DNA of 64,000 bases. It comes from an uncultured Candidatus Saccharibacteria bacterium (GTDB taxonomy: Bacteria; Patescibacteriota; Dojkabacteria; B142; OLB20). The stretch is from the NCBI GenBank assembly GCA_964461915.1, contig CAYWVD010000001.1, forward strand, positions 156,671-220,670, given 5' to 3'. Shown here piece after piece: positions 17,483 to 51,110 of the stretch. Each line of letters starts with the position of its first letter. Position 1 is the first letter of the stretch. Position numbers and translations under genes: made by a program. Under the pieces are notes generated by a model. It did not search any database, was not told the origin of the DNA, and saw nothing but the letters and a program-made list of their open reading frames with translations.

Positions 17483-17985
17483 TAGAGGAGCTAGGGTTTA
17501 ATAACCTGGATTCATTTTATAAATGTTTCTCGTCTATAATGAATGAGGGCTATGGCCAATTCCCACCAGTTCTTTCAGAATATTTCTTACTCACAGACTA
17601 TACTATTGAAAACTTTAGACTTTGGATCGATCGAAATTTTAGAAAGGTTTATTTAGCATTAGATGATAATTCGAATGTAATAGGATTTGTAATTGGGGAT
17701 CACACTTATGGAGGGGTTGGGTTTGTAAGTTGGTTGGGAGTATACCCAGAATACCGAAATAAAGGTATTGGCGGAGTTTTATTAGATAAATACACTGAAT
17801 ATATTAGGCAAATCAAAGGGCATTTAATTGAGCTTTACACATACGATAGAGCAAGGCCCTTTTACGAAAGACATGGATTTGTGTTGATTGGCAAAAGGCC
17901 AGAAGGATATTTTGGACGCAAGAACCTAATTATGAACTTAACATTAAAGCCCTTTGATATTAATGACTTATTGAAACGCTCTTAA
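17476..17985 (+). CDS. GNAT family N-acetyltransferase
   Basis: Acetyl-CoA motif A WLGVYPEYRNKGIGGVLL and a C-terminal RPFYERHGF. Confidence 0.75.
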   Translation: MVIEELGFNNLDSFYKCFSSIMNEGYGQFPPVLSEYFLLTDYTIENFRLWIDRNFRKVYLALDDNSNVIGFVIGDHTYGGVGFVSWLGVYPEYRNKGIGGVLLDKYTEYIRQIKGHLIELYTYDRARPFYERHGFVLIGKRPEGYFGRKNLIMNLTLKPFDINDLLKRS

Positions 17986-19168
17986 GTGCTTCAATAAGTT
18001 TGTTGATGTCTTCTTCGTCATTATAGATCCCTAAACTTATTCGTACGCTTGAGGGAATATTTAAAACTTCTCTATGCAATATTTGTGTGCAGTGATGGCC
18101 GGCCCTAACAGCAATGTCCTTATAATCCAATTTTTGGGCGATATCGTGCGGGTGAATGCCTTTATGAGTAAAGCTAATTATTGGGCCGTGAACTTTAGAA
18201 TTAAATTCTTTAACAATGAGTTCAATATTAGGGATCTCTTGCAATCTATTATGAAGTAATTGAGCAAGATTAGATTCCATCTCTTGGATTTTCTCGATAC
18301 CAATTGAGTTTACATATTCGATAGCTTTAGCAAGGCCAATTACTTCGGCAATTGGGGGTGTTCCAGCCTCAAATTTTTGGGGATGGTTAATAAGGGTGAA
18401 TGAGTCTCTTGTAACAATTTCGACTATTCCTCCGCCTACAAATAGATTGTCAATTTTTTGCAAAGCCTCGGATTTTCCCCATATAACTCCTAAGCCAGTT
18501 GGGCCATATACTTTGTGAGCAGAAAAAACAATAAAATCTGCGCCTAGATCTTTTACATCGATTTTCATATGCGCTATGGCTTGGGCTGCATCAAGTAATA
18601 GGAGTGTGTTTGGGGAATATTGATTAATTAATTCTTTGATTCTTTTGATTGGTGGGATATATCCTGTTACATTACTCATTAAGGTAATTGAGACAAGACT
18701 GACCGATCTAGTTTTTAGGGCTTTTTCGATTTGATTCAGATCAAAATATAAATTTTCGTCTAAATGAATATATTCAAGATTAAGTTCTTTTTCTTTTAAT
18801 ATGCATTGCCAAGGTAGGATGTTGCTATGATGCTCAAGATCACTTAAAAGAATTGTTGAATTTTGGGGTAAGAATTTCCTAAAAAAATATTCTGCTAATA
18901 AGTTGATTGATGCAGTTGTTCCGGATGTGAATATGATTTGGTCTTTTTCGGCCCCAATAAAATCGGCTACGGTTTGTCTACCAGTCTCATACATACTAGT
19001 AGCGAGTTCCGAAAGTTTGTATATACCCCTATGTACATTTGAATTTTGTTCGTTATAAAAATTCCCCAGTGATTGGATTACAGAGATCGGTTTTTGAGTG
19101 GTGGCCGAATTATCCAGATAAACTAATTCTTGGAATTTTTGGAAAATTGTAAAGTCGGATTTATTCAT
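17960..19168 (-). CDS. sufS: cysteine desulfurase SufS (class V aminotransferase)
   Basis: PLP-Lys motif FSAHKVYGPTGLGVIWG and the SufS active-site loop RAGHHCTQ. Confidence 0.85.
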   Translation of the reverse strand: MNKSDFTIFQKFQELVYLDNSATTQKPISVIQSLGNFYNEQNSNVHRGIYKLSELATSMYETGRQTVADFIGAEKDQIIFTSGTTASINLLAEYFFRKFLPQNSTILLSDLEHHSNILPWQCILKEKELNLEYIHLDENLYFDLNQIEKALKTRSVSLVSITLMSNVTGYIPPIKRIKELINQYSPNTLLLLDAAQAIAHMKIDVKDLGADFIVFSAHKVYGPTGLGVIWGKSEALQKIDNLFVGGGIVEIVTRDSFTLINHPQKFEAGTPPIAEVIGLAKAIEYVNSIGIEKIQEMESNLAQLLHNRLQEIPNIELIVKEFNSKVHGPIISFTHKGIHPHDIAQKLDYKDIAVRAGHHCTQILHREVLNIPSSVRISLGIYNDEEDINKLIEALKSVSISH

Positions 19169-19617
19169 AGATCATTTATAAAGGCCTGAATTAAAAGTTT
19201 CTCGGTTTGTTTTAAAGTTAAGCCTCGACTCATCAAATATTTTATCTCATTTTGATCAAGTTGTCGTATTGTTAAGCTATGCGATGCTTCGATATCATTA
19301 TCGAGGATTTCCATATTGGGGCTTATTAAAACATGAGGATTTTTTGCTAGGTTCAGGACTTCGATTCTTAAAACACTTTTTACGCCTCTAGCCCCCTTCA
19401 TGATAACTATTGTCGGAGCATAGTCGACAGGGTCTTTAGAATTCACAACAATTTTTATTCTGATTTCAGATTTAATATCCTTTTTTTTGTGAATGAATTT
19501 AATTTTATTAGAAAGTTTTCCAAATAATCTTGTTTGTATAATAGCTTTGAACAAAGTATCTTTGTTTACCTCAATGGCTTCTAATTTTTTAGATAGTAGT
19601 AATTCAAATATTTCCAT
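19165..19617 (-). CDS. sufD: minimal SufD-like protein (SufBD family, 150 aa)
   Basis: C-terminus HSLTIRQLDQNEIKYLMSRGLTLKQTEKLLIQAF matches the SufB/SufD terminal motif (...QLFYLMSRGi...). Lies between sufB and sufS, coupled by 1-nt and 4-nt overlaps. Confidence 0.6.
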   Translation of the reverse strand: MEIFELLLSKKLEAIEVNKDTLFKAIIQTRLFGKLSNKIKFIHKKKDIKSEIRIKIVVNSKDPVDYAPTIVIMKGARGVKSVLRIEVLNLAKNPHVLISPNMEILDNDIEASHSLTIRQLDQNEIKYLMSRGLTLKQTEKLLIQAFINDL

Positions 19618-21053
19618 TAAAGAACGCTTCCTTCCATGCTAAGGTTGATTAAAGTATTAAGTTCTGCGGCATATTCCATAGGTAATTCTTTAACAATTGG
19701 TTCAATAAAACCGGATACTATTAAAGCTGATGCTTGTGCTTCGTTGAGTCCTCGGGACATTAAATAACTTAATTGTTTTTTATTAAGTTTACTAACACTA
19801 GCTTCGTGAGATATTTCTGTACTATTGTTGAGAACTAAATTTGTAGGGTAGGTATCAGTTTGAGAAATATTATCAAGGATGAGAGCTTCGCAATTTACCT
19901 TAGATTTGGCTTTTAACGCAAAAGTATCAGATTTAACAAATCCTCTAAAAGAACTTCTGCCACCCCTTAAACAAATCGACTTAGAATTAATAATACTGGA
20001 AGTGTTCTTCCCGATATGGATGGCTTTGCCGCCGGCGTCGATGATTTGACCCTTACCTGCTAAAGCTATTGAAAGGATTTCTCCATGTGAATTATCACCT
20101 TCAAGGATCATTGCGGGGTATTTCATTGTGATTTTGGATCCTAGATTACAATCGACCCATTCCATAACGCCATTTTCAAAGACCTTAGACCTTTTTGTTA
20201 CAAGATTCAAAACATTTGTCGACCAATTTTGAATTGTGGTGTAGCGAACCCTAGCATTTTTCATGACTATTACTTCGACGACGGCGGCATGAAGCGAATC
20301 AGCGCTATATGTTGGAGCAGTACAGCCTTCGATATAGTGAACTTCACTGCCTTCATCGGCAATAATAAGAGTCCTTTCAAACTGGCCCATACTCTTTGTA
20401 TTAATTCGGAAGTATGTCTGAAGAGGAATTTTAAGTTTTATATGTTTTGGTATATAGATAAATGATCCACCGCTATAAACAGCCGAGTTTAGGGCCGCGA
20501 ATTTATTATCTGTAAAAGGGACGACAGAATTAAAGTATTTTTTAAAAAGATCTGGATATTTTTTATATCCTTCGGAAATATCTAAAAAAATTACGCCTTG
20601 TTTTGCCCATTTTTCTTTAAGATTTTTATAGATTATCTCAGATTCATATTGTGTGGCAATGCCAGCTAGGTATTTTTTTTCGGCTTCAGGTATCCCCAAT
20701 TTCTCAAAGGTTTCTTGAATTTTTGCGGGGACAGAATCCCAAGTTTTTTCTTTTGAATCTGAAGCCTGAACAAAATATTTTATATTGTCAAAATCTAGGG
20801 CTTTTAAATCGGGGCCAAATTCAGGCCATTTATGTTTTAAAAATTCTTTATAAGCTTTTAAACGGAAGTTTAGCATCCATTTGTCCTCATCCTTAATTTT
20901 GGCAATATTTTTTACAACATCTTTTGAAAGGCCTTTTTTAAATTCAATTTTATTCTGCAAATCGGTATGAAAGCCGTATTTCTCGTCGTAATCGTTTTTT
21001 GTATATATTTTTTTTACTTCGCAGTTTTCAGCTTCTGAATTTTTCATAACCAA
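19617..21053 (-). CDS. sufB: Fe-S cluster assembly protein SufB
   Basis: SufB beta-helix region and C-terminal QLSYLMSRGLNEAQASALIVSGF. 478 aa. Confidence 0.9.
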   Translation of the reverse strand: MVMKNSEAENCEVKKIYTKNDYDEKYGFHTDLQNKIEFKKGLSKDVVKNIAKIKDEDKWMLNFRLKAYKEFLKHKWPEFGPDLKALDFDNIKYFVQASDSKEKTWDSVPAKIQETFEKLGIPEAEKKYLAGIATQYESEIIYKNLKEKWAKQGVIFLDISEGYKKYPDLFKKYFNSVVPFTDNKFAALNSAVYSGGSFIYIPKHIKLKIPLQTYFRINTKSMGQFERTLIIADEGSEVHYIEGCTAPTYSADSLHAAVVEVIVMKNARVRYTTIQNWSTNVLNLVTKRSKVFENGVMEWVDCNLGSKITMKYPAMILEGDNSHGEILSIALAGKGQIIDAGGKAIHIGKNTSSIINSKSICLRGGRSSFRGFVKSDTFALKAKSKVNCEALILDNISQTDTYPTNLVLNNSTEISHEASVSKLNKKQLSYLMSRGLNEAQASALIVSGFIEPIVKELPMEYAAELNTLINLSMEGSVL

Positions 21054-21771
21054 ATTTTTCGATTGTTTGTAAGATGCTTGAATCTCTAGTCTTAACTATT
21101 TTTCCATCAATCATAATGTGGATTTTATCTGGTATAAGATCTTCGAAGATCTTGTGATAGTGCGTGATCACTAAAATTGTTAGATTTGGATTTGTATCCC
21201 TTAAATTCTTTATATAGCTAAAGATCGTCTTTAATGCTTCAATATCAAGACCGGAATCTGTTTCATCAAGGATGGCAAGTTTTGGACTTCTTAGGGCCAT
21301 CTGAAGTATCTCCAGCTTCTTTTTTTCACCACCAGAAAGACCTTCATTCAGATTCCTTTCTATTAAAGAATCAGGAATATTTAATGTCCTTGCAAGAGAA
21401 AGTAAATACTCCTTAAATTTAAACACGGGAAGTTGTTGGTCCTTAGGTTTTTGATTATTGTAAATTAGTCGAGCAAAGCTTCTAAAGTTTAAGCCCGGGA
21501 CTTCAATAGGAGTTTGATAAGCCATAAAGATACCTTTATTAGCCCGTTCTGTAATTGTTAAATCGGTAATATTATGGCCTTCAAAGTATATTTTGCCTGA
21601 AGAAATCTTACAATCGGGATCTGCTACAATTGCTTTCGCTAAGGTAGATTTGCCTGATCCGTTTGGGCCCATAATGACATGAACTTCACCTTCTGAGATT
21701 TGTAAAGAAATGTCAGACAAAATCTTTTTTGAATTAATTTCGCAACTGAGATCTTTTAATTCTAATATCAT
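21028..21771 (-). CDS. sufC: Fe-S cluster assembly ATPase SufC
   Basis: Walker A GPNGSGKSTL, ABC signature LSGGEKKKLEIL, Walker B LAILDETDSGLD. Confidence 0.9.
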   Translation of the reverse strand: MILELKDLSCEINSKKILSDISLQISEGEVHVIMGPNGSGKSTLAKAIVADPDCKISSGKIYFEGHNITDLTITERANKGIFMAYQTPIEVPGLNFRSFARLIYNNQKPKDQQLPVFKFKEYLLSLARTLNIPDSLIERNLNEGLSGGEKKKLEILQMALRSPKLAILDETDSGLDIEALKTIFSYIKNLRDTNPNLTILVITHYHKIFEDLIPDKIHIMIDGKIVKTRDSSILQTIEKFGYEKFRS

Positions 21772-21772
21772 T

Positions 21773-23560
21773 TTAGATAAAAATTGGTGAAATTAATTTA
21801 ATTACATCGGCTGGCTTCATTTTAATTGATTCGGTATTTAAACCATCGTTGAATGCCGAAACAGCTTTGCTTTCAATCTCTCTTGAAAAATAGGTTGTCA
21901 TCCCTAAAAGATTTCCAAAAGGTGGGATTGAGCCTAGTTCTAGTCCAAATTTGTCTTTGATGATTTGAGGATTCTCAAATTCAAACTTCTCAGTTTCAAA
22001 GTTGGCAAGTAAGTTCATATCCAGCTTTTGATCGGCTGGAATACAAACCATAATATTCTTACCTGTTTTTTTCCCTCTTAATATAATGGCCTTAATTCCT
22101 TCATCGAGCTTGGTGTTTCTTAGTGTGGCTGATTCTTCAGAGGTTTTTGCAGGCTCATGGGTTACTGTTTCGAATTTGATTTTATTTTTGTTAAGTTGAG
22201 ATAATATTTCTGTATTTAATTCTTTGCCAAAGAAAATCTTAGGAGCTATTCTTACTCCTCCAATAAGTTTTGGATCTGATGGGAATAATTCGGCTTCTTT
22301 GATATTATCTAGACCAATCATTTTTTGGACAAATCTTGCAATTCCTAAGCCAAAACCGCCTTCCTCAGGCATGCCGTATTTAAAACCATCTAAATATTGT
22401 TTTAAACCTGGGTTATTTGAATCAATCCCTTTGGATTGGATTTGCGAAACTAACTTCTCATAATTTACTTCACGCCTAGTAATGGTAGCAAGTTCTACAC
22501 CTCGGAATATCAAATCAGCTCTATCTGCAAATTCTAGGTTTTTCTCATTTTGATGATGATAAAATTTTGCATCGGCCCAAGGGAAGTCAACAATAAATAA
22601 GGCTTCACTATTCCAGTTCTTAATGGAATATTCAGTAATGAACTTTTCCTCAGAGGGTGCAACATCCATTTCGCCTGTGTGATCTTCACCTGTCTCTTTT
22701 TTCATAAGCTCATGAAGATCTTTAACACTTATTCGAGGAAGTTTTTCAGAAATGATTGGCTTTTTTGCTCCAAGTTCTTCTAAAAGAGTCTTTGATTCAT
22801 TCCAGGTATTTTCGGTTATGTATTTGATAAAGGTCTCGGATACATTAAGAATATCTTCAAAGGAATTAATAAATCCCATCTCCATGTCCAACATTAAGAT
22901 CTCGGAGACATGTCTGCTGGTATTACTTTTTTCGGCTCTATAGGCTCTTCCGATTTCATAAACTTTTTCAAAAACTCCTACCATGATTTGTTTATAAAAC
23001 TGAGGGCTTTGCGCCATATAGGCTTTTTTATCAAAATAATTAACTTCGAAAACTTCTGCGCCACCTTCAGTTGGGAAGGCGATCATTTTTGGTGAATTAA
23101 TTTGAGTGAAATCATTTTGGTTGAAAAAGTCCCTAATAATCCTTTCTGCATTACTCGCTATTTTAAAAATTGATGATTGCTTGGGGTGTCGTAAAGTTAC
23201 AACTCGATTCTCAAGCATAGTATCAAATTCGACATTAAGATCATTCTTAGAAATATCGACCGGACTAGGAAATTTGACAGGCTGAATTATTTCAATATTG
23301 CCTTTTTGAACTTCCACGCCATATTGTGATTTTTCCGAAAGTATTGCATTACCTTTTATTCTTAAAACTGACCCAGTGTATAAACCGTCTAGTTTTTTAA
23401 TCTCTTCTTCAGATTCTAAAACAATTTGGCTTAAACCTTTTCTGTCTCTAAGGATCAAGAACGCAAGCTTTCCCATTGTTCTTAAATTATGGAGCCAGCC
23501 TTCAAGTAGGATTTCTTCGCCAATGTGATTTTTAAGATCATTCGATAATATTCTTTGCAT
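21773..23560 (-). CDS. aspS: aspartate--tRNA ligase, archaeal/eukaryal type, fused to C-terminal YbaK/ProX-like aminoacyl-tRNA deacylase domain
   Basis: N-terminal OB-fold anticodon domain, class II motifs (FTQINSP; GGAEVFEVNYFDKKAYMAQSPQFYKQ; GRAYRAE; GGFGLGIARFV). The last ~150 aa align end to end with E. coli YbaK (LNKNKIKFETVTHEP vs LEKNKISFQIHTYEHDP; KAII vs KTLL; GSIPPFG vs GGISPLG). Confidence 0.8.
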   Translation of the reverse strand: MQRILSNDLKNHIGEEILLEGWLHNLRTMGKLAFLILRDRKGLSQIVLESEEEIKKLDGLYTGSVLRIKGNAILSEKSQYGVEVQKGNIEIIQPVKFPSPVDISKNDLNVEFDTMLENRVVTLRHPKQSSIFKIASNAERIIRDFFNQNDFTQINSPKMIAFPTEGGAEVFEVNYFDKKAYMAQSPQFYKQIMVGVFEKVYEIGRAYRAEKSNTSRHVSEILMLDMEMGFINSFEDILNVSETFIKYITENTWNESKTLLEELGAKKPIISEKLPRISVKDLHELMKKETGEDHTGEMDVAPSEEKFITEYSIKNWNSEALFIVDFPWADAKFYHHQNEKNLEFADRADLIFRGVELATITRREVNYEKLVSQIQSKGIDSNNPGLKQYLDGFKYGMPEEGGFGLGIARFVQKMIGLDNIKEAELFPSDPKLIGGVRIAPKIFFGKELNTEILSQLNKNKIKFETVTHEPAKTSEESATLRNTKLDEGIKAIILRGKKTGKNIMVCIPADQKLDMNLLANFETEKFEFENPQIIKDKFGLELGSIPPFGNLLGMTTYFSREIESKAVSAFNDGLNTESIKMKPADVIKLISPIFI

Positions 23561-23856: not shown

Positions 23857-24540
23857 TTGAAAAACTTCGGTCGTATAGTTTTACTGTTAATAGTACTTAT
23901 TCTTATTGGGATTTGGTCCCCTTGGCATAATTGGGATTTTTCCTTCCTATCAATGATAGGTATAGAAAATGATAATAGCTATTCTACACTTAAAGTTAAA
24001 TCATTATCTGGAAGCATAGATATTTATATCGATGACAAACTTGAAGGTAGTGTTGTTGCTGATGAATCTTTTGCAGAAATAAATACCATAAAAGAGGGCA
24101 TGCACTTAGTAAAACTTAAAAGGCAATCCGAAAATGGAGACATCTATTTTGAACTTAATAAAGAAATTAACTTTATTTCTGGAGTTGAAGTAGTTATGGC
24201 TTATGATCTTGGGCCATCTGAGGCTTTTTCAGAAGGTCATATTCTTTTCACTTCAAAAAATTACAAGAAAAACCAAAACCCTGTTGTTAATATAATTTCT
24301 TCACCAGAAGATCTAAATGTTTTTATTGATGATGAGCAAATTGGTACGACCCCAATAAGTGAATTAGAATTAGATTTGTCAAGACAACATAAGATCAGAT
24401 TTGAGAAAACCGGTTACGATTCTTTAGAATTTATGATTTTACCCGAAGATCAAGAGAGTAGGGATAAATTGAAAGATTTAACGATCAATCTTGAGGTAAA
24501 TTTATTTTTACAGCCGGTTAAAATAATTAAAAATACCTAA
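23857..24540 (+). CDS. membrane-anchored PEGA-domain protein (TTG start as given by track)
   Basis: N-terminal TM and two PEGA-like repeats (IDIYIDDKLEGS...; NVFIDDEQIGTTPIS...GYDSLEFMI). Confidence 0.45.
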   Translation: MKNFGRIVLLLIVLILIGIWSPWHNWDFSFLSMIGIENDNSYSTLKVKSLSGSIDIYIDDKLEGSVVADESFAEINTIKEGMHLVKLKRQSENGDIYFELNKEINFISGVEVVMAYDLGPSEAFSEGHILFTSKNYKKNQNPVVNIISSPEDLNVFIDDEQIGTTPISELELDLSRQHKIRFEKTGYDSLEFMILPEDQESRDKLKDLTINLEVNLFLQPVKIIKNT

Positions 24541-27500
24541 TGGTCACTGCCAATCAATTAAAAAACGCAATAAAATTTCCGACCTCGATTATTGTAAGGG
24601 GACAAGATCTTCTTGGGATTGAACTAGCAAAATCTCTATTAGAACAAGGTGGATTTGTAATTATTATCGATAAAGGCAGTCGAGAAGTTGAAAAATATTT
24701 ACCACTTATAGATTCCTATAAGAATTTAGTTTTAATGGATTATAGCGGCATAAGTTCGCTCCAAAGGGATCTAAGAAGGCTTGATTATGTTTTTTATCTT
24801 GATCATCAATATTCAGATTATTCGGAGAAAATTTCTACACAAGAATTTTTACAAGCATCAAATTATTTAGACACTGTACTTGATTTGACTGCAAAATTTG
24901 ATGCGAAATTCTTACTTACAACCTCAATTAAAGCGCATCAAGCGATTGTTGGAAATAAAGTCATCGATTTAAATTATGAAATGCAGGCTGCAGAAAAATA
25001 CTCTGCATATTCTGAGCTTGAAATTCAGAGATATTCTGAAAGTCTTGTTCGTGAATACCAGGAGAAGGTGGGTATTAATACTCGAATCGTTAGATTGGGG
25101 ACATTACTTGGCAGAGGTATGGAAATCAACCTTGATTCCATAGTAGTAAAATTGATAATTCAAGCCTTACAAAACGAGAGACTATTAATCCCCGGCGATG
25201 GTCTTGATACAGATTATTACATCCATTACCTTGATGCCGCTTATGGAATAATTAAGGCACAATTTTCACCAAATACAAAAGGTCAAATTTTTACATTATC
25301 AAATGAAGAGGAGATTTCTGTATTAGGCATAGCATATAAATTGATAGAACTCATTCCATCGGCTAAAGAAATTCAATTTGATCAAAATGATAATTCTCTT
25401 CCTCCAATTAAATTGTACAAACCAGCTGCTAATCTTACATCTATTGGCTGGTCACCAAGAATATCCTTCGATAGGGGTTTATCTCAGACTATTGATTTTA
25501 TAAAAGCGAGACTAAGTGAAGTGAATGGTAATGTGCAAAATTTAGAAAAAGAACTTATTCCCATATCAGGGAAAAAGGAACCGAAAGAAATCAAAAAGAA
25601 ATTTCTAGACTTCTTTTTCATTGCATCTAAAGAAGATGATCCATCTGCTACAGCCAATTTGAATACTCAAAACCTTAACAGCGAAGGAGCTTTAGCTAGG
25701 CTTATAGCGGAAAGAAAAAATCAAGAAAGAGCTAGAAAGGGGAGCATAATTTTAGCGAATAATAATTTACGAGAAGCTCTTCAGAAAAGGCCCGATCGAA
25801 CTCCTTTAGAAAGGTTTGATGATTGGCTAAATGATTTATTTGTGAGAATAAAACAAAGATTAAATGTCTTTAAAAATTTGACTCTCAAAGAATTTGCACT
25901 ATGGATGGCCGGACTGACTGCTTTTTTTATCATCTATTTCATATTTATTTCTCCATTGCTAAGTCTGTCAAAGGATATCCTCCTTTTTAGAAAAAATATT
26001 AAAGATTTATCAAATTCAGCAGAAATTTATAATTTCAATGAAATAAATGTAAAAACAAATGAAATTCTTGAAAACATCAATAATATTGAATCCAGATTAA
26101 AAGATCTTGAATTTGCATTTGTTTTAGTCAACCAAAATGATATTTATGCAAATACCAGATTGTTTATAACACAAGTAGAACAGTATTTTTTTGGGTTAGA
26201 TAATTATTCAAAATCTCTTATCCCATTAGATAATTTTCAAAAGATCTATTCACCGGGATTTGTCCAAAGATTAGATGAACAATTAATAATCGCAGATAAT
26301 AAGTCGAATTATATTGATAATCTTAACGAGCTATATAAAAACAGGTCGCTACTATCTTTAGGTCAAAAAGCAATGGAAGAAAATCAAGGTAGGATAATTG
26401 AAGGATTAAAATCTTTTCCAGATTGGGCAAAAACTTTTTTTGGCAATGATTTAGAAAGTTCTTTAACTTTTTATGAAGATGGCAAAGATATTGTAGAAAC
26501 TGTTAATAATTTGAATGTTCTTGTTGGCAAGGACAAAATGAGGCATTACTTAATAATCTTGCAAGACAATGAAAGATTTTATGCAAATGGTGGAAAGCTA
26601 GTGGGTTATTATCTATTAGGTGTTCAAAATGCTGAAATTAAAAATGTTAAATTTGTAAATATTTCTGAATTTCAAAATATTAATCCTAATTTATCAACAG
26701 CAGCAGTTAAAGATATAACTTTAGTGAGTAAGAAGATGCTCACACTTAACAATGTGGTTTTTAATGATATAAATTTTATTTCTGATCCCGACCTATTCTA
26801 CGATGAAGTTGAAGAAGTTGTTGAAGCAAAAGAACTAGTTCCCATTGATATGGGAATAATTGTAAATATGAATGCAATTGCTAATATAACCGGTGAAAGT
26901 GGGGATTTAATATTCAAACAAAAAAACATTTCGACAAACAACTTTTACGAATCGTTCAATGGTTTTCTAGCAAGTGATGCTACAGATAAACAAAGAAATG
27001 ATTTGATAATTTCGTATTTTTCTACGCTTTTAGAGAAAAAGGTTAACAATGTTTTTATTGATAAATCAATTAGCGATGCAGTCTTTAAATCAATATCATC
27101 TAATGATATTAGGGTATTTACAAATGAACCAATAATTCAAAAATATTTATCAAGTATTTTTACAGATATTAAAGTTAAAGATGAAGTGTTCATAGGAATG
27201 AACTATGACGGTATGTCAGCAAAATTTTCAAATTTAAATGATATTGAAATCTCGGGCAATATCCTAGTTAAAAAAGATTTTACTACAACAAAGAATTTTA
27301 AAATTAAATTCAATGCAAATGGAGTGCTGAATACATATTTTTGTATGCCAAGCAGTGTTTCAGAACTCGATATTAACGAAACTGCTACCGAAAACTATTC
27401 TCAAGCCTTTGATGTAACCAATCTCCAGAAGCTTTGCGTAATAATGCTTCCTGATGACGATCTAAAATATGGAATAAATTATAAAACTGGAGTTTTTGAA

Positions 27501-27707
27501 AAAACTACTGATTCAAGCTATAATTATTTATTCAAGATAAATTCCATCTCAGGCACTCAAGTAAATTATGATTTAGAGTTTTTGTTTGAAGATACACTGG
27601 ATCATGTGATTCCGATAACTGAAAACTCAATTAATCAATCTGATGGATATTTATTTAAAGGACAGTTTGTAAATTCAAAAACTTTTAATTTTAAAATTAA
27701 CCGATAA
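24540..27707 (+). CDS. large membrane protein: degenerate NAD-epimerase-like N-domain + TM + DUF4012-like extracytoplasmic domain
   Basis: N-terminal ~330 aa have an SDR/epimerase fold but the Gly motif is degenerate (VRGQDLLG) and YxxxK is missing. TM at ~aa 455-478. C-terminal region contains HYLIILQDNERFYANGGKLVGYY, resembling the DUF4012 LLxQNnaElRxtGG motif. Confidence 0.4.
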   Translation: MVTANQLKNAIKFPTSIIVRGQDLLGIELAKSLLEQGGFVIIIDKGSREVEKYLPLIDSYKNLVLMDYSGISSLQRDLRRLDYVFYLDHQYSDYSEKISTQEFLQASNYLDTVLDLTAKFDAKFLLTTSIKAHQAIVGNKVIDLNYEMQAAEKYSAYSELEIQRYSESLVREYQEKVGINTRIVRLGTLLGRGMEINLDSIVVKLIIQALQNERLLIPGDGLDTDYYIHYLDAAYGIIKAQFSPNTKGQIFTLSNEEEISVLGIAYKLIELIPSAKEIQFDQNDNSLPPIKLYKPAANLTSIGWSPRISFDRGLSQTIDFIKARLSEVNGNVQNLEKELIPISGKKEPKEIKKKFLDFFFIASKEDDPSATANLNTQNLNSEGALARLIAERKNQERARKGSIILANNNLREALQKRPDRTPLERFDDWLNDLFVRIKQRLNVFKNLTLKEFALWMAGLTAFFIIYFIFISPLLSLSKDILLFRKNIKDLSNSAEIYNFNEINVKTNEILENINNIESRLKDLEFAFVLVNQNDIYANTRLFITQVEQYFFGLDNYSKSLIPLDNFQKIYSPGFVQRLDEQLIIADNKSNYIDNLNELYKNRSLLSLGQKAMEENQGRIIEGLKSFPDWAKTFFGNDLESSLTFYEDGKDIVETVNNLNVLVGKDKMRHYLIILQDNERFYANGGKLVGYYLLGVQNAEIKNVKFVNISEFQNINPNLSTAAVKDITLVSKKMLTLNNVVFNDINFISDPDLFYDEVEEVVEAKELVPIDMGIIVNMNAIANITGESGDLIFKQKNISTNNFYESFNGFLASDATDKQRNDLIISYFSTLLEKKVNNVFIDKSISDAVFKSISSNDIRVFTNEPIIQKYLSSIFTDIKVKDEVFIGMNYDGMSAKFSNLNDIEISGNILVKKDFTTTKNFKIKFNANGVLNTYFCMPSSVSELDINETATENYSQAFDVTNLQKLCVIMLPDDDLKYGINYKTGVFEKTTDSSYNYLFKINSISGTQVNYDLEFLFEDTLDHVIPITENSINQSDGYLFKGQFVNSKTFNFKINR

Positions 27708-28196: not shown

Positions 28197-29204
28197 ATGG
28201 AAAGACATCCAGTGCCCCATAATTTTATGGATGTTGAATTTAAGCTTTTCGGTTTTTTTACTGTAAAGCAATTTGGATATTTGGCTGTTGGCTTTATTCT
28301 CTCATTGCTTATTTATTACTCGACTTTCCCTGATATTCTCAAGTTAATTTTCATTGGAGTTTCAATGGGTAGTGGGCTTGTTTTAGCGCTTGTTAAAATA
28401 AATGGCCAACCATCGGTAATTTATGTCCAAAACTTTATTACTAGTTTATTTGAACCCCAAGAAAGGCTCTGGAAAAAGACTCCTGTTGTTCCAGACATTT
28501 TACAAGAATCAAAGAACAATACAAAAGTTGAATCTAATAAAGAACTAGATAGCGCGCTTTCTAGAATAAAAGTTGCAAATATACCAGATCAGCCTTTAGC
28601 AAAATTATCTGAAGAAGAAGAAAAACTCGATAAATTCGAAAATGAAAATCTCAACAAAATTGACGAACATTTTGATTTCCTTTTTAATCAAGTCCCTGAA
28701 ATACAAGGCGAAAAATCTCAAACGCCATCTCACGATCGGGCCGTAAATACTCCACCAATAAACGAAACTATGTTTAAAAAGCCATCGACGATTGCTGATT
28801 CGATTAATCAAAATCTTCCGGGTGAAAAACTTTATGAAGGATCAAATTACGCTGTTTCGTTTAAACCTATGACGAGTAGGGTTAATAGACCGATTAATTT
28901 TAATGTTGCAAATCCTACCATGGCCGTTGTTAAAAATAATAATGCAAAATTGTACTTAACGGGAATAGTCGTTGATAGTGCTAATCAACCTATAAAATCA
29001 ACTAGAGTGGATATCATTGATCTTTCGGGCAAATTAGTTAGGTCACTAGCTACGAATAATGAGGGCAGATTTGAATTGATAAACCAATTACCAAGTGGCG
29101 ATTACTATTTAGATATTACAAAACCTGACTTCAACTTTGATCGCATAAGCGTTAATATAGAGGAAGGAAAATTATCAGACATTATTATTAAAGCGAAAAA
29201 CTAA
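28197..29204 (+). CDS. PrgI/VirB3-like membrane protein with C-terminal carboxypeptidase-regulatory-like beta-sandwich domain
   Basis: MERHPVPHNFMDVEFKLFGFFTVKQFGYLAVGFILSLLIYY matches the PrgI family N-terminus (VPQ..D.EDKI.G.LTLRQF.YL), with two TMs. C-terminus YLTGIVVDSANQPIKSTRVDIIDLSGKLV...GDYYLDITKPDFNF. Confidence 0.5.
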   Translation: MERHPVPHNFMDVEFKLFGFFTVKQFGYLAVGFILSLLIYYSTFPDILKLIFIGVSMGSGLVLALVKINGQPSVIYVQNFITSLFEPQERLWKKTPVVPDILQESKNNTKVESNKELDSALSRIKVANIPDQPLAKLSEEEEKLDKFENENLNKIDEHFDFLFNQVPEIQGEKSQTPSHDRAVNTPPINETMFKKPSTIADSINQNLPGEKLYEGSNYAVSFKPMTSRVNRPINFNVANPTMAVVKNNNAKLYLTGIVVDSANQPIKSTRVDIIDLSGKLVRSLATNNEGRFELINQLPSGDYYLDITKPDFNFDRISVNIEEGKLSDIIIKAKN

Positions 29205-29869
29205 TGGGATTATTCGGGTCATCTACAACACCAAGTACACAACAACATCTAGCGATTGAAGATATCAGGGACGATCTTGTAATCCTTAAAAATGGAATGA
29301 TTTCGTTAGTTCTCGAAGTAAATGCTTTGAATTTCGATTTGTTATCAGAGAAAGAGCAAGACATTAAAATCATGAGTTTTGCAGGTCTTTTAAATTCTTT
29401 GGAATTTCCTTTCCAAATCGTTATTCGTACAGAAAGAACAGATATTAGTACATATTTAGATAGATTAAGAATCTATAGAGAGAAACAAATATCCGATGCC
29501 CTAAAAAGACAAATAGATATTTATATGCAATTTATTCAGAATTTAACTGCGAATAAAGATATTCTTGATAAAACCTTTTATGTCGTAATTCCTGAGACAG
29601 GTAGTGTAGTCCAAAAAACTAGTAGTGTTAAACAATTTTTTGGCAAAAAAGAAAAGATTATTAATGTTAATTCAATTATGGACGAAATTAAGCCTAGGCT
29701 TTACCCTAAAAGAGATAATTTTATAAAACAATTTAAAAATATTGGTTTAACAGCATTTCAACTTGATAATGATCGACTCATCAAGCTTTATTATTCAATG
29801 TACGATCCAGATAAATTAGGAGTTTCTAAATTACAATTAAAAACAACACAATACACATCTAGTAAATAA
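29204..29869 (+). CDS. VirB4/TrsE/PrgJ N-terminal domain protein (separate ORF)
   Basis: HLAIEDIRDDLVILKNGMISLVLEVNALNFDLLSEKEQDIKIMSFAGLLNSLEFPFQIVIRTER matches the Gram-positive VirB4 N-domain. Stop overlaps the next start (TAATG). Confidence 0.55.
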   Translation: MGLFGSSTTPSTQQHLAIEDIRDDLVILKNGMISLVLEVNALNFDLLSEKEQDIKIMSFAGLLNSLEFPFQIVIRTERTDISTYLDRLRIYREKQISDALKRQIDIYMQFIQNLTANKDILDKTFYVVIPETGSVVQKTSSVKQFFGKKEKIINVNSIMDEIKPRLYPKRDNFIKQFKNIGLTAFQLDNDRLIKLYYSMYDPDKLGVSKLQLKTTQYTSSK

Positions 29870-31929
29870 TGAATATACTTGACGCAATATTAGGCAGAAA
29901 ACCAACTCAAAACGCCCCTCAAATTCAAGGACAAAAGTCTGTTGCCGATCATCAGACTAATCAATCACAAGTATCTAAAACAACTCCTGTAGCTTCAAAT
30001 AAAGCCGATGTCAAAGAAAATAAAAAAGAAAGCATTGGAATTAAACAAGTTTTAGAGGCTGTTATGGGTAAGCCAGAGGTAAAAGTAACGGAAGAAAAAA
30101 CTGAACAGCAATTAGAAGAAGAGGCTATTAAGAATTTTTCCGAAGGTATAGTTGATGTTAAAGATATCATTGCTCCGCCAGCTATTGAGATAGACTTTAA
30201 TAACATGCAAATAGGTAGTAAATATTTTAGGACCTTTTTTGCGACAGGATTCCCAACTTGGGTAGGCGCTAATTGGCTGTCCCCCCTTATAAATTTTGAA
30301 AAACCGATCACGATTTCAACTTTTTATTATCCAACAGATTCTGGACTTGTTTTACAGAGACTAAAAAGGAAGATAACTGAATTCCAAGCTACTTTGAACT
30401 TGGATTTAGAAGCAGGGAAACTTCCTGATCCAAATGTAAAGGTCGCATTAAGATCAGCGGAAGAACTTCAAGACCAGATTGCTTCTGGTAATCAAAAATT
30501 TTTTCACTTTGCTTTATATGTAACAATTCGTTCAACAAATCTAAAAGAGCTTGAGGAGATATCAAGAAATGTAGAATCAACCCTTTCAGCAATTGGAGTT
30601 ATTGTAAAAGTTGCTTCTCTTCAACAAGAGCAAGGCTTTATCTCAAGTCTGCCATTAGGATATGACAAAATCTATCTTAATAGGAATATGGACACAACTT
30701 CACTTGCGACTACATTCCCATTCGTATCTTCTGAGCTTACTATGGACGATGGAATTATGTATGGAATCAATAAGCATAATAAGAGTTTGATCATTTTTGA
30801 TAGATTTCAAATGCCTAACCCCAATATGGTAATTTTTGCCACATCTGGAGCAGGTAAATCATACTTCGTAAAACTCGAAGCTATGAGAAGTTTAATGCTT
30901 GGAACGCATATTCTTATTATTGATCCTGAAAAGGAATACGAAAAACTTACAAATGCGATTGGGGGAGAATATATTACATTCTCTCAAGATTCGAGAGCAA
31001 AATTAAATCCCTTCGAGCTGTCTGGAATTTTTGAAAAAGATGAGGATGAGCTTCGATTCAAGATACTTTTTCTTCAAGGTTTAATTAGAATCATGGTAGG
31101 GGGTTCTTTAACTCCAATCGAAACTGCTATACTTGATAGAGCCTTGATCCTTACTTATAAAGAAAAGGGCATTACTCCTGACCCATCAACGCAAAGACGA
31201 CCTCCACCACTACTGGAAGATCTTTATAAGATTTTAAATGCAATGGCAGAAGACGAAGCTCATTTACTTGCAAGTAAAATTGAAAGGTTTATAAAAGGTA
31301 GCGCAGCTGGAGTTTTCGATCAAGCCACAAATGTAAAAATTAACAATACATTTACTGCTTTTAGTATTAGGGATTTATCTGATGAACTTAGGCCTGTCGC
31401 AATGTATATCATGTTGGATTATATCTGGACGCTTGTTAAAAAAGATAAAAGACAAAGGATTCTAATTATTGACGAGGCTTGGTGGATGATGCAATATCCT
31501 GACGCTGCTCGTTTTGTGTATTCTATTGTAAAAAGATCTAGAAAATATGGACTAGGAGTAACCACAATCACACAGGATGTTAATGACTTTTTGAATTCTG
31601 ATTATGGAAAGGCTGTAGTTAATAACTCTTCGATCCAACTTCTACTAAAGCAAAATGCTGCTGCAGTCGATCAGATACAAAAAGTTTTCTATTTGTCTGA
31701 TGGAGAGAAAGATTATTTATTATCGGCTGGCATTGGAGAAGGTTTGTTTTTTGCTGATTATAATCATGTTGCTATTCAAGTTTTAGCTAGTGAAAATGAG
31801 CATAACCTTATAACAACAAACTTAAGAGAACTACTTGCGATGGAAACTAAGGCCAAAGATGAAGCTGCTGCGGTAAAAGATGTTAGACCTCAAAAAAGTG
31901 TAGTTAAGACGAATTTATCAGTAGAATAA
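29869..31929 (+). CDS. virB4: VirB4-like type IV secretion ATPase (ATPase domain)
   Basis: Walker A FATSGAGKSYF, Walker B ILIIDEAWWMM, and a C-terminal CagE/TrbE/VirB architecture. Confidence 0.8.
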   Translation: MNILDAILGRKPTQNAPQIQGQKSVADHQTNQSQVSKTTPVASNKADVKENKKESIGIKQVLEAVMGKPEVKVTEEKTEQQLEEEAIKNFSEGIVDVKDIIAPPAIEIDFNNMQIGSKYFRTFFATGFPTWVGANWLSPLINFEKPITISTFYYPTDSGLVLQRLKRKITEFQATLNLDLEAGKLPDPNVKVALRSAEELQDQIASGNQKFFHFALYVTIRSTNLKELEEISRNVESTLSAIGVIVKVASLQQEQGFISSLPLGYDKIYLNRNMDTTSLATTFPFVSSELTMDDGIMYGINKHNKSLIIFDRFQMPNPNMVIFATSGAGKSYFVKLEAMRSLMLGTHILIIDPEKEYEKLTNAIGGEYITFSQDSRAKLNPFELSGIFEKDEDELRFKILFLQGLIRIMVGGSLTPIETAILDRALILTYKEKGITPDPSTQRRPPPLLEDLYKILNAMAEDEAHLLASKIERFIKGSAAGVFDQATNVKINNTFTAFSIRDLSDELRPVAMYIMLDYIWTLVKKDKRQRILIIDEAWWMMQYPDAARFVYSIVKRSRKYGLGVTTITQDVNDFLNSDYGKAVVNNSSIQLLLKQNAAAVDQIQKVFYLSDGEKDYLLSAGIGEGLFFADYNHVAIQVLASENEHNLITTNLRELLAMETKAKDEAAAVKDVRPQKSVVKTNLSVE

Positions 31930-32507: not shown

Positions 32508-32518
32508 TATAATTATCC

Positions 32519-32843
32519 CAACTGATCAAGATAGTAGCCCCTAAAATAATATTTATGGGGAGGAAAGTCCGGACTCTAAGCTAAGTAAAAATTAGCAAAA
32601 AGTACCATGGAAACATGGATAGGTGTGAGCTTATAGAACAGGGCCACAGAAAGCAAAATCCCAAGTCTAATCGATTTGGAGATTGTGAAAAGGTGGTGTA
32701 AAAGACCACCGGTTTCAACTGTAAAGTTGAAATGCTGGGTAACCCTTACTTTAGAGCAACTAGAAAGTCTCTAGGCATAGATAAATTACTATCTGAATCC
32801 AAAACTAATTGGAAGATACAGAATCTGGCTTATTGATCAGTTA
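32519..32843 (+). ncRNA. rnpB: RNase P RNA (bacterial type)
   Basis: P4 strands GGAGGAAAGTCCGG (32559-32572) and ACAGAATCTGGCTTA (32817-32831). P1 pairs AACTGATCAA with TTGATCAGTT. Internal ACAGAAAGCAAA and GGTGGTGTAAAAGACCACC (GGUAA-type P15/16 region). Confidence 0.85.
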
Positions 32844-32846
32844 AAA

Positions 32847-51093: not shown

Positions 51094-51110
51094 TATTGTA
51101 TACTTAAAAT

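What the first reader, a model, noticed from the sequence alone, without database searches (positions are those of the whole stretch)
21773..23560. Archaeal-type AspRS with a C-terminal YbaK/ProX aminoacyl-tRNA deacylase domain fused in cis
The first ~440 aa are a complete class IIb aspartyl-tRNA synthetase of the archaeal/eukaryal type. They show the QSPQ(F/L)YKQ flipping-loop motif and have no bacterial GAD insertion. The final ~150 aa (about nt 21773-22225) align along their whole length with free-standing E. coli YbaK, including the catalytic Lys position and the GxxSPxG loop. YbaK/ProX/INS editing modules are classically associated with ProRS. An AspRS carrying one is not a textbook architecture. 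It could mean cis-proofreading of a mischarged tRNA, or a tRNA-handling role linked to non-discriminating Asp-tRNA(Asn) formation in a reduced genome. Because the total length (595 aa) mimics a bacterial-type AspRS, automated annotation would not flag it.
Basis: partly seen in the sequence, partly recalled or inferred. Interest (0 to 1): 0.65.

Follow-up and report, generated by a model that had tools for sequence, protein, structure and literature searches.

The report
AspRS with appended YeaK-like editing domain
This gene really does encode an aspartyl-tRNA synthetase with a tRNA-proofreading (deacylase) domain fused to its end; the architecture turns out to be conserved in hundreds of bacteria, including cultured Parachlamydia, yet I found no published description of it, and AspRS is not an enzyme thought to need proofreading.

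Summary
Window 21773-23560 (-) is one uninterrupted 595-aa ORF: a complete archaeal-type AspRS (aa 1-431, above NCBIfam's aspartate--tRNA(Asn) ligase cut-off, no GAD), a short junction, and a full-length PF04073 aminoacyl-tRNA editing domain (aa 446-595).

It is not an assembly artefact. The identical gene was assembled from five sequencing runs. 79 of the 80 best reference-genome loci carry the same fusion (Dojkabacteria, many environmental Chlamydiota, Bdellovibrionota, Verrucomicrobiota MAGs), and so does cultured Parachlamydia acanthamoebae.

The module is not YbaK proper: it falls far below both YbaK equivalog cut-offs. It belongs to the YeaK/ProXp-ST1-like and lpg1207-like part of the INS superfamily. 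The catalytic Lys and GXXXP loop are kept in all 79 fused proteins, and the module is under purifying selection.

The same module family is also fused to bacterial-type (GAD-containing) AspRS, and to no other synthetase among its 150 nearest cluster representatives.

Best reading: an active cis-acting deacylase that proofreads tRNA charged by AspRS. The substrate is unknown (Ser/Thr-type by homology; Asp-tRNAAsn is the main rival). No paper in the searchable library describes it. I rate it a new variant of a known kind, of moderate to high interest.

The parts
21773..23560 (-). Whole fusion gene (595 codons plus TAA stop): AspRS with a C-terminal editing domain. It is the first gene of a tightly packed aspS-sufC-sufB-sufD-sufS string.
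   Evidence: ORF list. Pfam and NCBIfam scans. The stop codon lies 1 nt before the sufC ATG. Neighbouring genes are given.
23303..23509 (-). N-terminal OB-fold anticodon-binding domain (aa 18-86). It has His24 at the position of Trp26 of T. kodakarensis AspRS, and Gln79 at the position of Lys85.
   Evidence: PF01336 E 5.7e-10. The best solved relative of aa 1-120 is T. thermophilus non-discriminating AspRS2 (1n9w, 67.9 bits), against 34-35 bits for the T. kodakarensis enzyme (1b8a/3nel).
22274..23224 (-). Class IIb catalytic core (aa 113-429), archaeal type, with no GAD insertion. It contains QSPQFYKQ (22988-23011), motif 2 YRAE, and motif 3 GFGLG..R.
   Evidence: PF00152 E 3.5e-70. NF003483 scores 456 bits against a cut-off of 353. 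Invariant residues are listed. Foldseek best hits are 3nel/1b8a, 1wyd and 3kfu/1n9w.
22226..22285 (-). Junction and linker (aa 426-445, FPSDPKLIGGVRIAPKIFFG). The derived 'FPSD' replaces the canonical C-terminal 'FPRD..R.TP' of unfused archaeal-type AspRS.
   Evidence: Translation. 78 of 79 fused proteins have FPSD; 83 of 85 unfused relatives have FPRD. AlphaFold2 pLDDT is below 50 for residues 428-440.
21776..22225 (-). INS-superfamily aminoacyl-tRNA editing (deacylase) module, aa 446-595, of the YeaK/ProXp-ST1-like branch.
   Evidence: PF04073 matched over profile positions 1-123 of 123, E 3.4e-19. AlphaFold2 pLDDT is 95.7. Foldseek TM-scores are about 0.8 to 3op6, 1wdv, 1vki, ProX, YbaK and the ProRS INS domain. 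BLASTP against YeaK gives E 3e-18. Against its closest homologue, pN is 0.116 against a saturated pS of 0.82.
22091..22093 (-). Codon of Lys490, the superfamily's catalytic lysine (it aligns with K46 of YbaK).
   Evidence: Translation. Alignments to YbaK. Invariant in alignments A1 and A2, and the motif G.K[AS] is present in 79 of 79 fused loci.
21920..21934 (-). GXXXP loop (G543-S-I-P-P547) of the editing site.
   Evidence: Translation. G543, P546 and P547 are invariant. The motif G..PP[FL] is present in 79 of 79 fused loci.

Best explanation
The gene encodes the organism's aspartyl-tRNA synthetase with a catalytically competent aminoacyl-tRNA deacylase appended in cis.

Shown:
- The N-terminal 431 aa are an intact archaeal-type class IIb AspRS.
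- The last 150 aa are a well-folded INS-superfamily editing domain that keeps the catalytic Lys and the GXXXP loop.
- The two parts are joined by a flexible linker of about 20 residues.
- The fusion is real, widespread and under purifying selection.
- The same module family is attached to both AspRS lineages, and to no other synthetase among its nearest relatives.

Inferred:
- After AspRS esterifies the 3' end of its bound tRNA (tRNAAsp, and probably tRNAAsn), the tethered module samples the aminoacylated CCA end.
- It hydrolyses the ester when the amino acid is wrong, and spares Asp-tRNAAsp. This would be post-transfer editing, with AspRS supplying the tRNA binding that free-standing INS-type factors lack.
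- By homology to YeaK/ProXp-ST1, the most likely targets are small polar non-cognate residues (Ser/Thr type). The real substrate is unknown.
For: Architecture and integrity. AspRS motifs 2 and 3, QS.Q.YKQ, E356 and R363 are invariant.

Not an artefact: the identical gene is found in 5 runs. 79 of the 80 best genome loci are ORFs of about 600 aa with the same order of parts. A cultured organism, P. acanthamoebae, has a 602-aa version.

Active-site retention: K490, G543, P546 and P547 are invariant, and both motifs are present in 79 of 79 fused loci. The module is better conserved than the core between phyla (42-54% against 34-44% identity to the window). pN is 0.116 against a saturated pS of 0.82. 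The fold is confirmed at pLDDT 95.7 and TM about 0.8 to INS-family structures.

Specific coupling to AspRS: 22 of the 150 nearest 50%-identity cluster representatives are AspRS-attached, 9 archaeal-type and 13 bacterial-type. These include P0137 and P0158, which pass the bacterial aspS equivalog cut-off. No other aaRS partner is seen. The junction signature FPSD is shared by fused proteins whose cores are only about 38-40% identical, while the window's core is 57-66% identical to unfused FPRD-ending enzymes. This suggests that the linker plus module moved between AspRS cores.

Subfamily: YeaK gives 64 bits and E 3e-18, against 40 bits for YbaK. YeaK shares 18 of the 28 family-conserved positions.

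Precedents from the literature: ProXp-ST1 and ProXp-ST2 clear Ser/Thr from several tRNAs, including tRNALys, which is charged by a class IIb enzyme. Trans-editing factors generally lack RNA-binding domains, and YbaK gains tRNA specificity through ProRS (PMC11295145; PMC11286415).
Against: - No misactivation by AspRS that would call for editing is known to me, and none was found in the searchable literature. AspRS is not, to my knowledge, among the 10 of 23 aaRSs for which editing has been described (the count is from PMC7373986).
- No residue distinguishes fused modules from free-standing ones, so nothing in the sequence points to an AspRS-specific substrate.
- The AlphaFold2 model gives no confident inter-domain geometry (pTM 0.63, linker pLDDT below 50). 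Access of the CCA end to the module is therefore assumed, not shown.
- The NJ tree of modules has no support values.
- Only the best 80 of 519 matching genome loci were inspected.
Confidence: 0.5

Rival explanations
1. Tethered general trans-editing factor. The module does what free-standing YeaK/ProXp-ST1 does: it clears Ser/Thr (or similar) from many different tRNAs mischarged by other synthetases. Fusion to AspRS would then only provide stable stoichiometric expression, dimerisation or general tRNA affinity, not proofreading of AspRS's own products.
For: Fused and free-standing modules share the same conserved positions, with no fusion-specific residues. ProXp-ST1 is reported to have broad tRNA specificity (PMC11295145). 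The linker is flexible. Most family members are free-standing proteins of 150-165 aa (117 of the 150 representatives). The free-standing gene in L090 is not next to aspS.
Against: The partner is always AspRS, in both the archaeal and bacterial lineages, and never another synthetase among the 150 nearest representatives. A merely convenient carrier would be expected to vary. The junction and module appear to have been retained or transferred specifically between AspRS cores.
Confidence: 0.25
2. Safety valve, or discrimination by editing, on the indirect asparagine pathway. The AspRS core is non-discriminating, and the module hydrolyses Asp-tRNAAsn that is not handed to GatCAB. This would keep the toxic intermediate away from the ribosome.
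For: The core passes the aspartate--tRNA(Asn) ligase equivalog cut-off. Its anticodon-binding domain is closest to T. thermophilus ND-AspRS2 of the transamidosome, and it has His at the W26-equivalent position (the meaning of W26/K85 is from my memory of Feng et al. 2003). There is a precedent: H. pylori GluRS2 deacylates excess Glu-tRNAGln (PMC3241645). NCBIfam also holds a model for an AspRS-GatC fusion (NF009460, listed), so the AspRS C-terminus can carry a partner that acts on the charged acceptor end.
Against: - Asp-tRNAAsn is a required intermediate where the pathway is used.
- The K85-equivalent residue is Gln, not the Pro seen in the ND enzymes.
- P. acanthamoebae UV-7 and Waddlia are listed with asnS as well as gatCAB, so the fusion is not tied to AsnRS-less genomes.
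- The nearest characterised relative acts on Ser/Thr, not on an acidic residue.
- No basic residue specific to fused modules was found.
- No gatCAB is linked to the gene in the window or in the 80 loci.
Confidence: 0.15
3. YbaK or ProX proper: a Cys-tRNAPro or Ala-tRNAPro deacylase that compensates for a ProRS lacking an INS domain and merely happens to be fused to AspRS.
For: E. coli YbaK aligns over the whole module and shares the Lys and the loop. TIGR00011 is the best-named NCBIfam hit.
Against: Scores are far below both YbaK equivalog cut-offs (46 against 153; 24 against 243). E. coli YeaK itself scores the same against TIGR00011 (45.5 bits), so that hit reflects only superfamily membership. 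YbaK shares only 14 of the 28 family-conserved positions, against 18 for YeaK. Sequence identity to ProXp-ala structures (1vjf, 1vki) is 13-18%. No proS is in the window.
Confidence: 0.04
4. Artefact or dead domain: either a chimeric assembly or two genes merged by a sequencing error, or a decayed module kept only as a structural appendage or tRNA-binding pad.
For: None for the artefact. For a non-catalytic role, the only support is that no activity has been measured.
Against: Independent assemblies give the identical gene. 79 continuous fused ORFs are found in different genomes. The catalytic Lys and GXXXP loop are kept in 79 of 79. The module is under purifying selection. The fold is predicted with high confidence.
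Confidence: 0.03

Closest known systems
E. coli YeaK (ProXp-ST1), free-standing Ser/Thr-tRNA deacylase of the INS superfamily
   Same: It is the closest characterised relative of the module: BLASTP 64 bits, 28% identity over 156 aa. It shares the H..E / R-G-T / G-x-K-A / PPF / FN-G / S / D signature, 18 of 28 conserved positions. It scores 80-91 bits against some AspRS-fused modules.
   Different: YeaK is a single-domain protein acting in trans with broad tRNA specificity (PMC11295145). Here the module is covalently attached to AspRS. Identity is low, and no curated YeaK model exists to test membership.
lpg1207 of Legionella pneumophila (PDB 3op6), an uncharacterised INS-superfamily protein
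   Same: It is the best solved-structure match by sequence (E 6.8e-13) and by fold (TM 0.80).
   Different: Its function is unknown and it is free-standing. It is closest to the three-fold tandem proteins P0177 and P0205 and lacks several family-conserved residues (16 of 28 shared).
ProRS editing architectures: the bacterial ProRS INS insertion, and the N-terminal ProXp-ala-ProRS fusions of Plasmodium and Trypanosoma
   Same: A domain of the same superfamily is joined in cis to a class II synthetase to hydrolyse mischarged tRNA. It uses the same catalytic Lys and GXXXP loop (PMC11286415).
   Different: The partner is ProRS, not AspRS. The domain is inserted between motifs 2 and 3, or placed N-terminally, rather than appended at the C-terminus. 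The substrate there is Ala-tRNAPro.
Archaeal-type non-discriminating AspRS2 of Thermus thermophilus (1n9w; transamidosome 3kfu) and Deinococcus
   Same: It is the same type of AspRS core in a bacterium. It is the best match for the anticodon-binding domain, with TMt 0.93.
   Different: It ends at the canonical C-terminus and has no editing module. In Thermus and Deinococcus it is a second AspRS (PMC4206432). In P. acanthamoebae UV-7 only one aspS is listed.
AspRS-GatC fusion (NCBIfam NF009460, bifunctional aspartyl-tRNA synthetase/amidotransferase subunit C)
   Same: It is another C-terminal appendage on AspRS. By its name, that appendage serves processing of the aminoacylated acceptor end.
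   Different: It has a bacterial-type core and its appendage is GatC, not a hydrolase. The window protein scores only 73 bits against a cut-off of 1379.

Membership tests
Aspartyl-tRNA synthetase, archaeal/eukaryal type (class IIb) | The sequence scores above the curated equivalog cut-off and has an OB anticodon-binding domain plus a class II core without a GAD insertion. | tested here: met
   NF003483 scores 456 bits against a cut-off of 353. Bacterial aspS models score 153-163 bits against cut-offs of 374-443. AsnRS models score 240-246 bits against cut-offs of 343-414. No PF02938 (GAD) hit is found. Foldseek best hits are archaeal AspRS.
Aspartyl-tRNA synthetase, archaeal/eukaryal type (class IIb) | Asp-binding and catalytic residues are present: QSPQxYKQ with Lys, motif 2 RAE, motif 3 G.G.G..R, and the Arg of the GGQR region. 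| tested here: met
   Q184, S185, Q187, Y189, K190, Q191, R208, A209, E210, E356, R363 and G402-R409 are invariant in 22 fused homologues. In the window's clade GGQR reads (I/V)TRR, as in its unfused relatives.
Non-discriminating AspRS (charges tRNAAsn as well) | Anticodon-domain signature of ND enzymes (His and Pro at the positions of W26 and K85 of T. kodakarensis AspRS; from my memory of Feng et al. 2003), together with dependence on GatCAB. | tested here: inconclusive
   H24 aligns with W26, where 1n9w and 1wyd have His. Q79 aligns with K85, where 1n9w and 1wyd have Pro. No gatCAB or asnS is in the 64-kb window. The rest of the genome could not be searched.
INS superfamily of aminoacyl-tRNA editing domains (Pfam PF04073) | A full-length match above the gathering score, and the YbaK-like fold. 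| tested here: met
   The match scores 66.9-69.6 bits against a cut-off of 25.5, over profile positions 1-123 of 123. The AlphaFold2 model has pLDDT 95.7. Foldseek E-values are 1e-12 to 1e-9, with TM about 0.8, to 3op6, 1wdv, 1vki, 8huz, 2cx5, 2dxa and 1dbu.
INS superfamily of aminoacyl-tRNA editing domains (Pfam PF04073) | A conserved catalytic lysine and the Gly-XXX-Pro loop (PMC11286415). | tested here: met
   K490 and G543-S-I-P-P547 are present. They are invariant in A1 and A2 and present in 79 of 79 fused loci.
INS superfamily of aminoacyl-tRNA editing domains (Pfam PF04073) | Hydrolysis of a mischarged aminoacyl-tRNA. | not testable with these tools
   This needs deacylation assays.
YbaK (Cys-tRNAPro/Cys-tRNACys deacylase) | The sequence scores above the curated equivalog cut-offs (TIGR00011, NF007951). 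| tested here: not met
   TIGR00011 scores 42-46 bits against a cut-off of 153. NF007951 scores 20-24 bits against a cut-off of 243. YeaK itself gets 45.5 bits on TIGR00011, so that hit is only at superfamily level.
YeaK / ProXp-ST1 (Ser/Thr-tRNA deacylase) | Closer to YeaK than to other characterised INS families, and sharing its conserved residues. | tested here: inconclusive
   BLASTP gives 64 bits for YeaK and 40 for YbaK. phmmer gives 45 bits for YeaK, 50 for 3op6 and 27 for YbaK. 18 of 28 conserved positions are shared. No curated model or reference sequences for ProXp-ST2, -x, -7, -8 or -9 were available, apart from PDB folds. The defining SSN paper (Kuzmishin Nagy 2020) is not held.
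YeaK / ProXp-ST1 (Ser/Thr-tRNA deacylase) | Ser- and Thr-tRNA deacylase activity. | not testable with these tools
   This is a biochemical property (Liu et al. 2015, as summarised in PMC11295145).

The most novel reading that the evidence does not exclude
AspRS has a previously unrecognised error (a near-cognate amino acid, or its own Asp-tRNAAsn product) that cells must correct, and the YeaK-like branch of the INS superfamily is its dedicated editing partner. The partner would be fused in cis in Chlamydiota, Dojkabacteria, Bdellovibrionota and others, and would act in trans elsewhere (possibly including E. coli YeaK). AspRS would then become an eleventh synthetase with post-transfer editing, and the repeated capture of the module by both AspRS lineages would be a Rosetta-stone signal for that partnership.
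Probability: 0.25. Interest if true: 0.8.

Novelty: new variant of a known kind. Interest (0 to 1): 0.62.

Why it matters
AspRS is treated as a synthetase that needs no proofreading, and experts' reviews describe INS-type factors as single-domain proteins linked to ProRS. A conserved, selected AspRS-deacylase fusion changes that picture. It is found in several phyla, on both AspRS lineages, and in an organism that can be grown (Parachlamydia acanthamoebae in amoebae).

The fusion implies one of two things. Either tRNAAsp/tRNAAsn charging has an error that matters in vivo, or the Asp-tRNAAsn intermediate is policed by hydrolysis. Both options are directly testable with one recombinant protein and a K490A mutant.

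It would also give a functional lead for the large, mostly uncharacterised YeaK-like family. Most carriers identified by taxon (intracellular chlamydiae, CPR bacteria, predatory Bdellovibrionota) are known, from general knowledge, to depend on a host or prey for amino acids. This might point to proofreading driven by skewed amino-acid pools. That last point is speculation.

Tried and rejected
- Chimera or merged genes: rejected.
- YbaK proper: rejected on curated cut-offs.
- Genomic linkage to gatCAB, asnS or proS: none found. I annotated the whole window through the look-up of encoding contigs and Pfam. I also clustered the flanking ORFs of 80 loci; the recurrent neighbours are pnp, ftsH, tilS, HSP20 and similar, which are uninformative.
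- Fusion-specific specificity residues: none found.
- Free-standing module next to aspS: not the case in L090.
- RNA leader or T-box upstream of the gene: none. Rfam finds only RNase P RNA and tRNA-Pro in the window. Promoter-like and terminator-like sites are not clearly above chance.
- dN/dS: dS is saturated, so only pN and pS are reported.
- AFDB fold search for UniProt annotation of the fusion: the library was unavailable.
- Key subscription papers are not held: Kuzmishin Nagy 2020 and Liu 2015.
- Eight literature searches for any description of an AspRS plus YbaK/YeaK/INS fusion found nothing. This is absence in the held library, not proof that it is unpublished.
- Whole-genome content (second aspS, asnS, gatCAB, dtd, free YeaK) could not be examined for the window's organism.
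Full report
**1. The observation**

Window 21773-23560 on the minus strand is a single 595-codon ORF with an ATG start and a TAA stop.
- Pfam finds three domains in order: tRNA_anti-codon (aa 18-86), tRNA-synt_2 (aa 113-429, E 3.5e-70), and tRNA_edit PF04073 (aa 468-589). The last covers the whole profile, 1-123 of 123, with E 2.3e-18, and 3.4e-19 when the last 160 aa are scanned alone.
- NCBIfam places aa 1-431 above the curated cut-off of NF003483, aspartate--tRNA(Asn) ligase (456 bits against 353). The same region is well below the cut-offs of bacterial aspS, asnS and lysS models.
- There is no GAD domain.
- QSPQFYKQ, the motif 2 RAE, the motif 3 G.G.G..R, E356 and R363 are present, and they are invariant among fused homologues.

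**2. Not an artefact**

The identical 595-aa protein is encoded on at least eight contigs from five sequencing runs, always followed by sufC-sufB-sufD-sufS.
- A homologue search returns fused proteins of 595-620 aa at identities from 85% down to 40%.
- A scan of one genome per species with the module motif G[GAS][VI]PPFG[NRT]L[LF] gave 519 confirmed loci. In 79 of the best 80 loci the module lies in a continuous ORF of about 600 aa whose N-terminal 430 residues are an archaeal-type AspRS.
- By record title these are Dojkabacteria/WS6 (including the complete genome AP024679), many environmental Chlamydiota (Parachlamydiales, Simkaniaceae, Rhabdochlamydiaceae), Bdellovibrionota, Verrucomicrobiota MAGs and a few others. 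The window's own clade is represented by a MAG labelled Ca. Saccharibacteria (L011, core 87% identical).
- A cultured species has the fusion too: P0273, 602 aa, named 'aspartate--tRNA(Asn) ligase [Parachlamydia acanthamoebae]'.

**3. What the C-terminal module is**

It is an INS-superfamily editing domain.
- Folded alone it gives pLDDT 95.7.
- It matches 3op6 (lpg1207), 1wdv, 1vki, ProX (8huz, 2cx5), YbaK (2dxa, 1dbu) and the INS domain of bacterial ProRS, with TM about 0.8 for the free-standing proteins.
- Two elements are said to be common to all characterised members: a conserved Lys and the GXXXP loop (PMC11286415). Here they are K490 and G543-P547. They are invariant in my alignments, and both motifs are present in 79 of 79 fused loci.

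It is not YbaK in the strict sense.
- TIGR00011 gives 46 bits against a cut-off of 153, and NF007951 gives 24 against 243.
- E. coli YeaK gets the same TIGR00011 score, so this hit reflects only superfamily membership.
- Against real E. coli sequences fetched from MG1655, the module scores 64 bits (28% identity, E 3e-18) with YeaK/ProXp-ST1 and 40 bits with YbaK.
- With phmmer the scores are 45 bits (YeaK), 50 (3op6) and 27 (YbaK).
- Of 28 positions conserved in the family, YeaK shares 18, 3op6 shares 16 and YbaK shares 14.
- I therefore file the module in the YeaK/ProXp-ST1-like and lpg1207-like part of the superfamily. A finer assignment is open, because reference sets for ProXp-ST2, -7, -8 and -9 were not available.

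**4. The module is functional and specifically coupled to AspRS**

- Between the window and the chlamydial or Dojkabacteria proteins, the module is better conserved (42-54% identity) than the AspRS core (34-44%).
- Against the closest homologue, synonymous sites are saturated (pS 0.74-0.82). Non-synonymous differences are 0.085 in the core and 0.116 in the module.
- An exhaustive phmmer search of 1.84 billion cluster representatives with the module alone found 1069 relatives at E <= 1e-3.
- Of the best 150, 117 of the non-attached proteins are free-standing, at 200 aa or less. 22 of the 150 are attached to an AspRS, 9 archaeal-type and 13 bacterial-type.
- The bacterial-type set includes P0137 (748 aa) and P0158 (744 aa), which carry GAD domains and pass the bacterial aspS equivalog cut-off. 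It also includes P0123 (625 aa), a bacterial-type core with no detectable GAD domain.
- No other synthetase is a partner. The only other architectures are three-fold tandem modules, a DD-carboxypeptidase fusion and a GmrSD_N fusion.
- In a rough NJ tree, AspRS-fused modules sit in several places among free-standing ones (no support values).

**5. The junction tells a story**

- Unfused archaeal-type relatives end in ...LFPRD..R(V/I)TP (83 of 85).
- 78 of 79 fused proteins have ...LFPSD(P/T)K.I(A/G)... followed by the module.
- The window's AspRS core belongs to a group of mostly unfused CPR-like enzymes. It is 57-66% identical to them and shares the unusual E(L/V)AT(I/V)TRRE in place of EI.SGGQR.H.
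- Yet it carries the FPSD junction and a module most like those of fused proteins whose cores are only about 38-40% identical.
- The simplest reading (inference) is that the junction plus module was transplanted onto a different AspRS core.
- Two close relatives, P0010 and P0011, have the FPSD junction and then stop after about 15 residues. They look like secondary losses.
- In bacterial-type fusions the module follows the complete bacterial C-terminal extension, so that is a different junction.
- Selection has thus put or kept this module on AspRS at least twice.

**6. Discriminating or not**

- The anticodon-binding domain is far closer to T. thermophilus ND-AspRS2 (68 bits) than to the T. 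kodakarensis enzyme (34-35 bits).
- It has His at the W26-equivalent position but Gln, not Pro, at the K85-equivalent position. The meaning of these two positions is from my memory of Feng et al. 2003.
- The 64-kb window holds no asnS, gatCAB or proS, and I could not search the rest of the genome.
- A published survey lists P. acanthamoebae UV-7 and Waddlia chondrophila with one aspS, one asnS, gatCAB and no glnS (PMC4206432 Table S1).
- If the fused gene is that single aspS (inference), two things follow. The fused enzyme is the housekeeping AspRS there, and the fusion is not restricted to AsnRS-less genomes.

**7. Mechanism**

Shown: an intact AspRS, an intact deacylase-type module, a flexible linker of about 20 residues (pLDDT below 50 for 428-440; pTM 0.63, so no reliable inter-domain geometry), strong conservation, and AspRS-specific coupling.

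Inferred: the module samples the aminoacylated CCA end of tRNA held by AspRS and hydrolyses a wrong aminoacyl ester.
- Free INS-type factors generally lack RNA-binding domains, and YbaK borrows tRNA specificity from ProRS (PMC11295145, PMC11286415). Covalent attachment to AspRS would give the same specificity for tRNAAsp and tRNAAsn.
- By homology, the substrate would be of the Ser/Thr type. ProXp-ST1 and ProXp-ST2 already serve tRNALys, which is charged by another class IIb enzyme.

Rivals:
- A tethered general trans-factor. This is favoured by the lack of fusion-specific residues and disfavoured by the exclusive AspRS partnership.
- Hydrolysis of excess Asp-tRNAAsn. It has a precedent in H. 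pylori GluRS2 (PMC3241645), but it is weakened by asnS-containing carriers and by the Ser/Thr-type relatives.

**8. What is known**

- A 2020 review counts editing in 10 of 23 aaRSs (PMC7373986). AspRS is not among them, to my knowledge.
[quoted passage not shown] Its own figure legend lists ProXp-ala-ProRS and the plant CTD form as additional architectures.
- Eight full-text searches found no paper describing an AspRS-INS-type fusion.
- No solved structure spans both parts.
- The architecture is nevertheless visible in databases: precomputed Pfam strings list PF01336, PF00152 and PF04073, and the names given are plain AspRS.

**9. Verdict**

This is a real, widespread, selected and apparently undescribed variant of a known kind (a synthetase with an appended editing domain). 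The partner synthetase is unexpected and the substrate is unknown.

Noticed in passing
window 8269-9843 (+): A ThyX (Pfam Thy1) protein of 524 aa, which from memory is about twice the usual length. It may be an internally duplicated flavin-dependent thymidylate synthase.
   Followed up: no
window 60270-63680 (-): A 1136-aa ORF that combines phosphoglucomutase domains (PGM_PMM I-III) with DUF3417 and an alpha-glucan phosphorylase domain. This is an apparent fusion of two consecutive steps of glycogen breakdown.
   Followed up: no
window 24540-27707 (+): A 1055-aa protein in which only an N-terminal NAD-dependent Epimerase domain is recognised. About 700 C-terminal residues have no family match. 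It follows a PEGA-like (faint hit) 227-aa protein.
   Followed up: no
window 28197-31929 (+): A cluster of PrgI-like/CarboxypepD_reg, TraC-like and VirB4-like (DUF87, AAA_10, P-loop_TraG) genes directly after greA. These look like type IV secretion or conjugation-like components.
   Followed up: no
window 50003-52397: An SOS-type cassette. An SRAP peptidase and an S24 (LexA/UmuD-like) peptidase on the minus strand are divergent from a Y-family polymerase (IMS, IMS_C, DUF4113) on the plus strand.
   Followed up: no
window 32518-32848 (+) and 47583-47656 (-): Bacterial class A RNase P RNA (144 bits) and a single tRNA-Pro(CGG). These are the only RNA genes detected in the window.
   Followed up: yes
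proteins P0010 (444 aa) and P0011 (448 aa), close relatives of the window's AspRS: They carry the fusion-type junction FPSDTKMIGA(V/I)R but stop about 15 residues later. They look like secondary loss or truncation of the editing module.
   Followed up: partly
proteins P0177, P0205, P0239, P0176 (relatives of the module): Other architectures occur in the same module family: three tandem tRNA_edit domains (3op6-like), tRNA_edit plus a D-Ala-D-Ala carboxypeptidase (Peptidase_S11), and GmrSD_N plus tRNA_edit.
   Followed up: partly
window 21772-21775 and 17960-21771 (-): The fusion gene's TAA stop is separated by a single base from the ATG of sufC, and sufB, sufD and sufS follow. The synthetase therefore heads an Fe-S cluster assembly operon in this organism. 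This linkage is not seen in the chlamydial loci.
   Followed up: partly
window 22201-22230 (-): A promoter-like pair of hexamers (TTGGCA-18-TATTAT, 10 of 12 matches) sits at the linker/module boundary inside the gene. The number of such sites in the region is not above that in shuffled sequence, so it is probably chance.
   Followed up: partly
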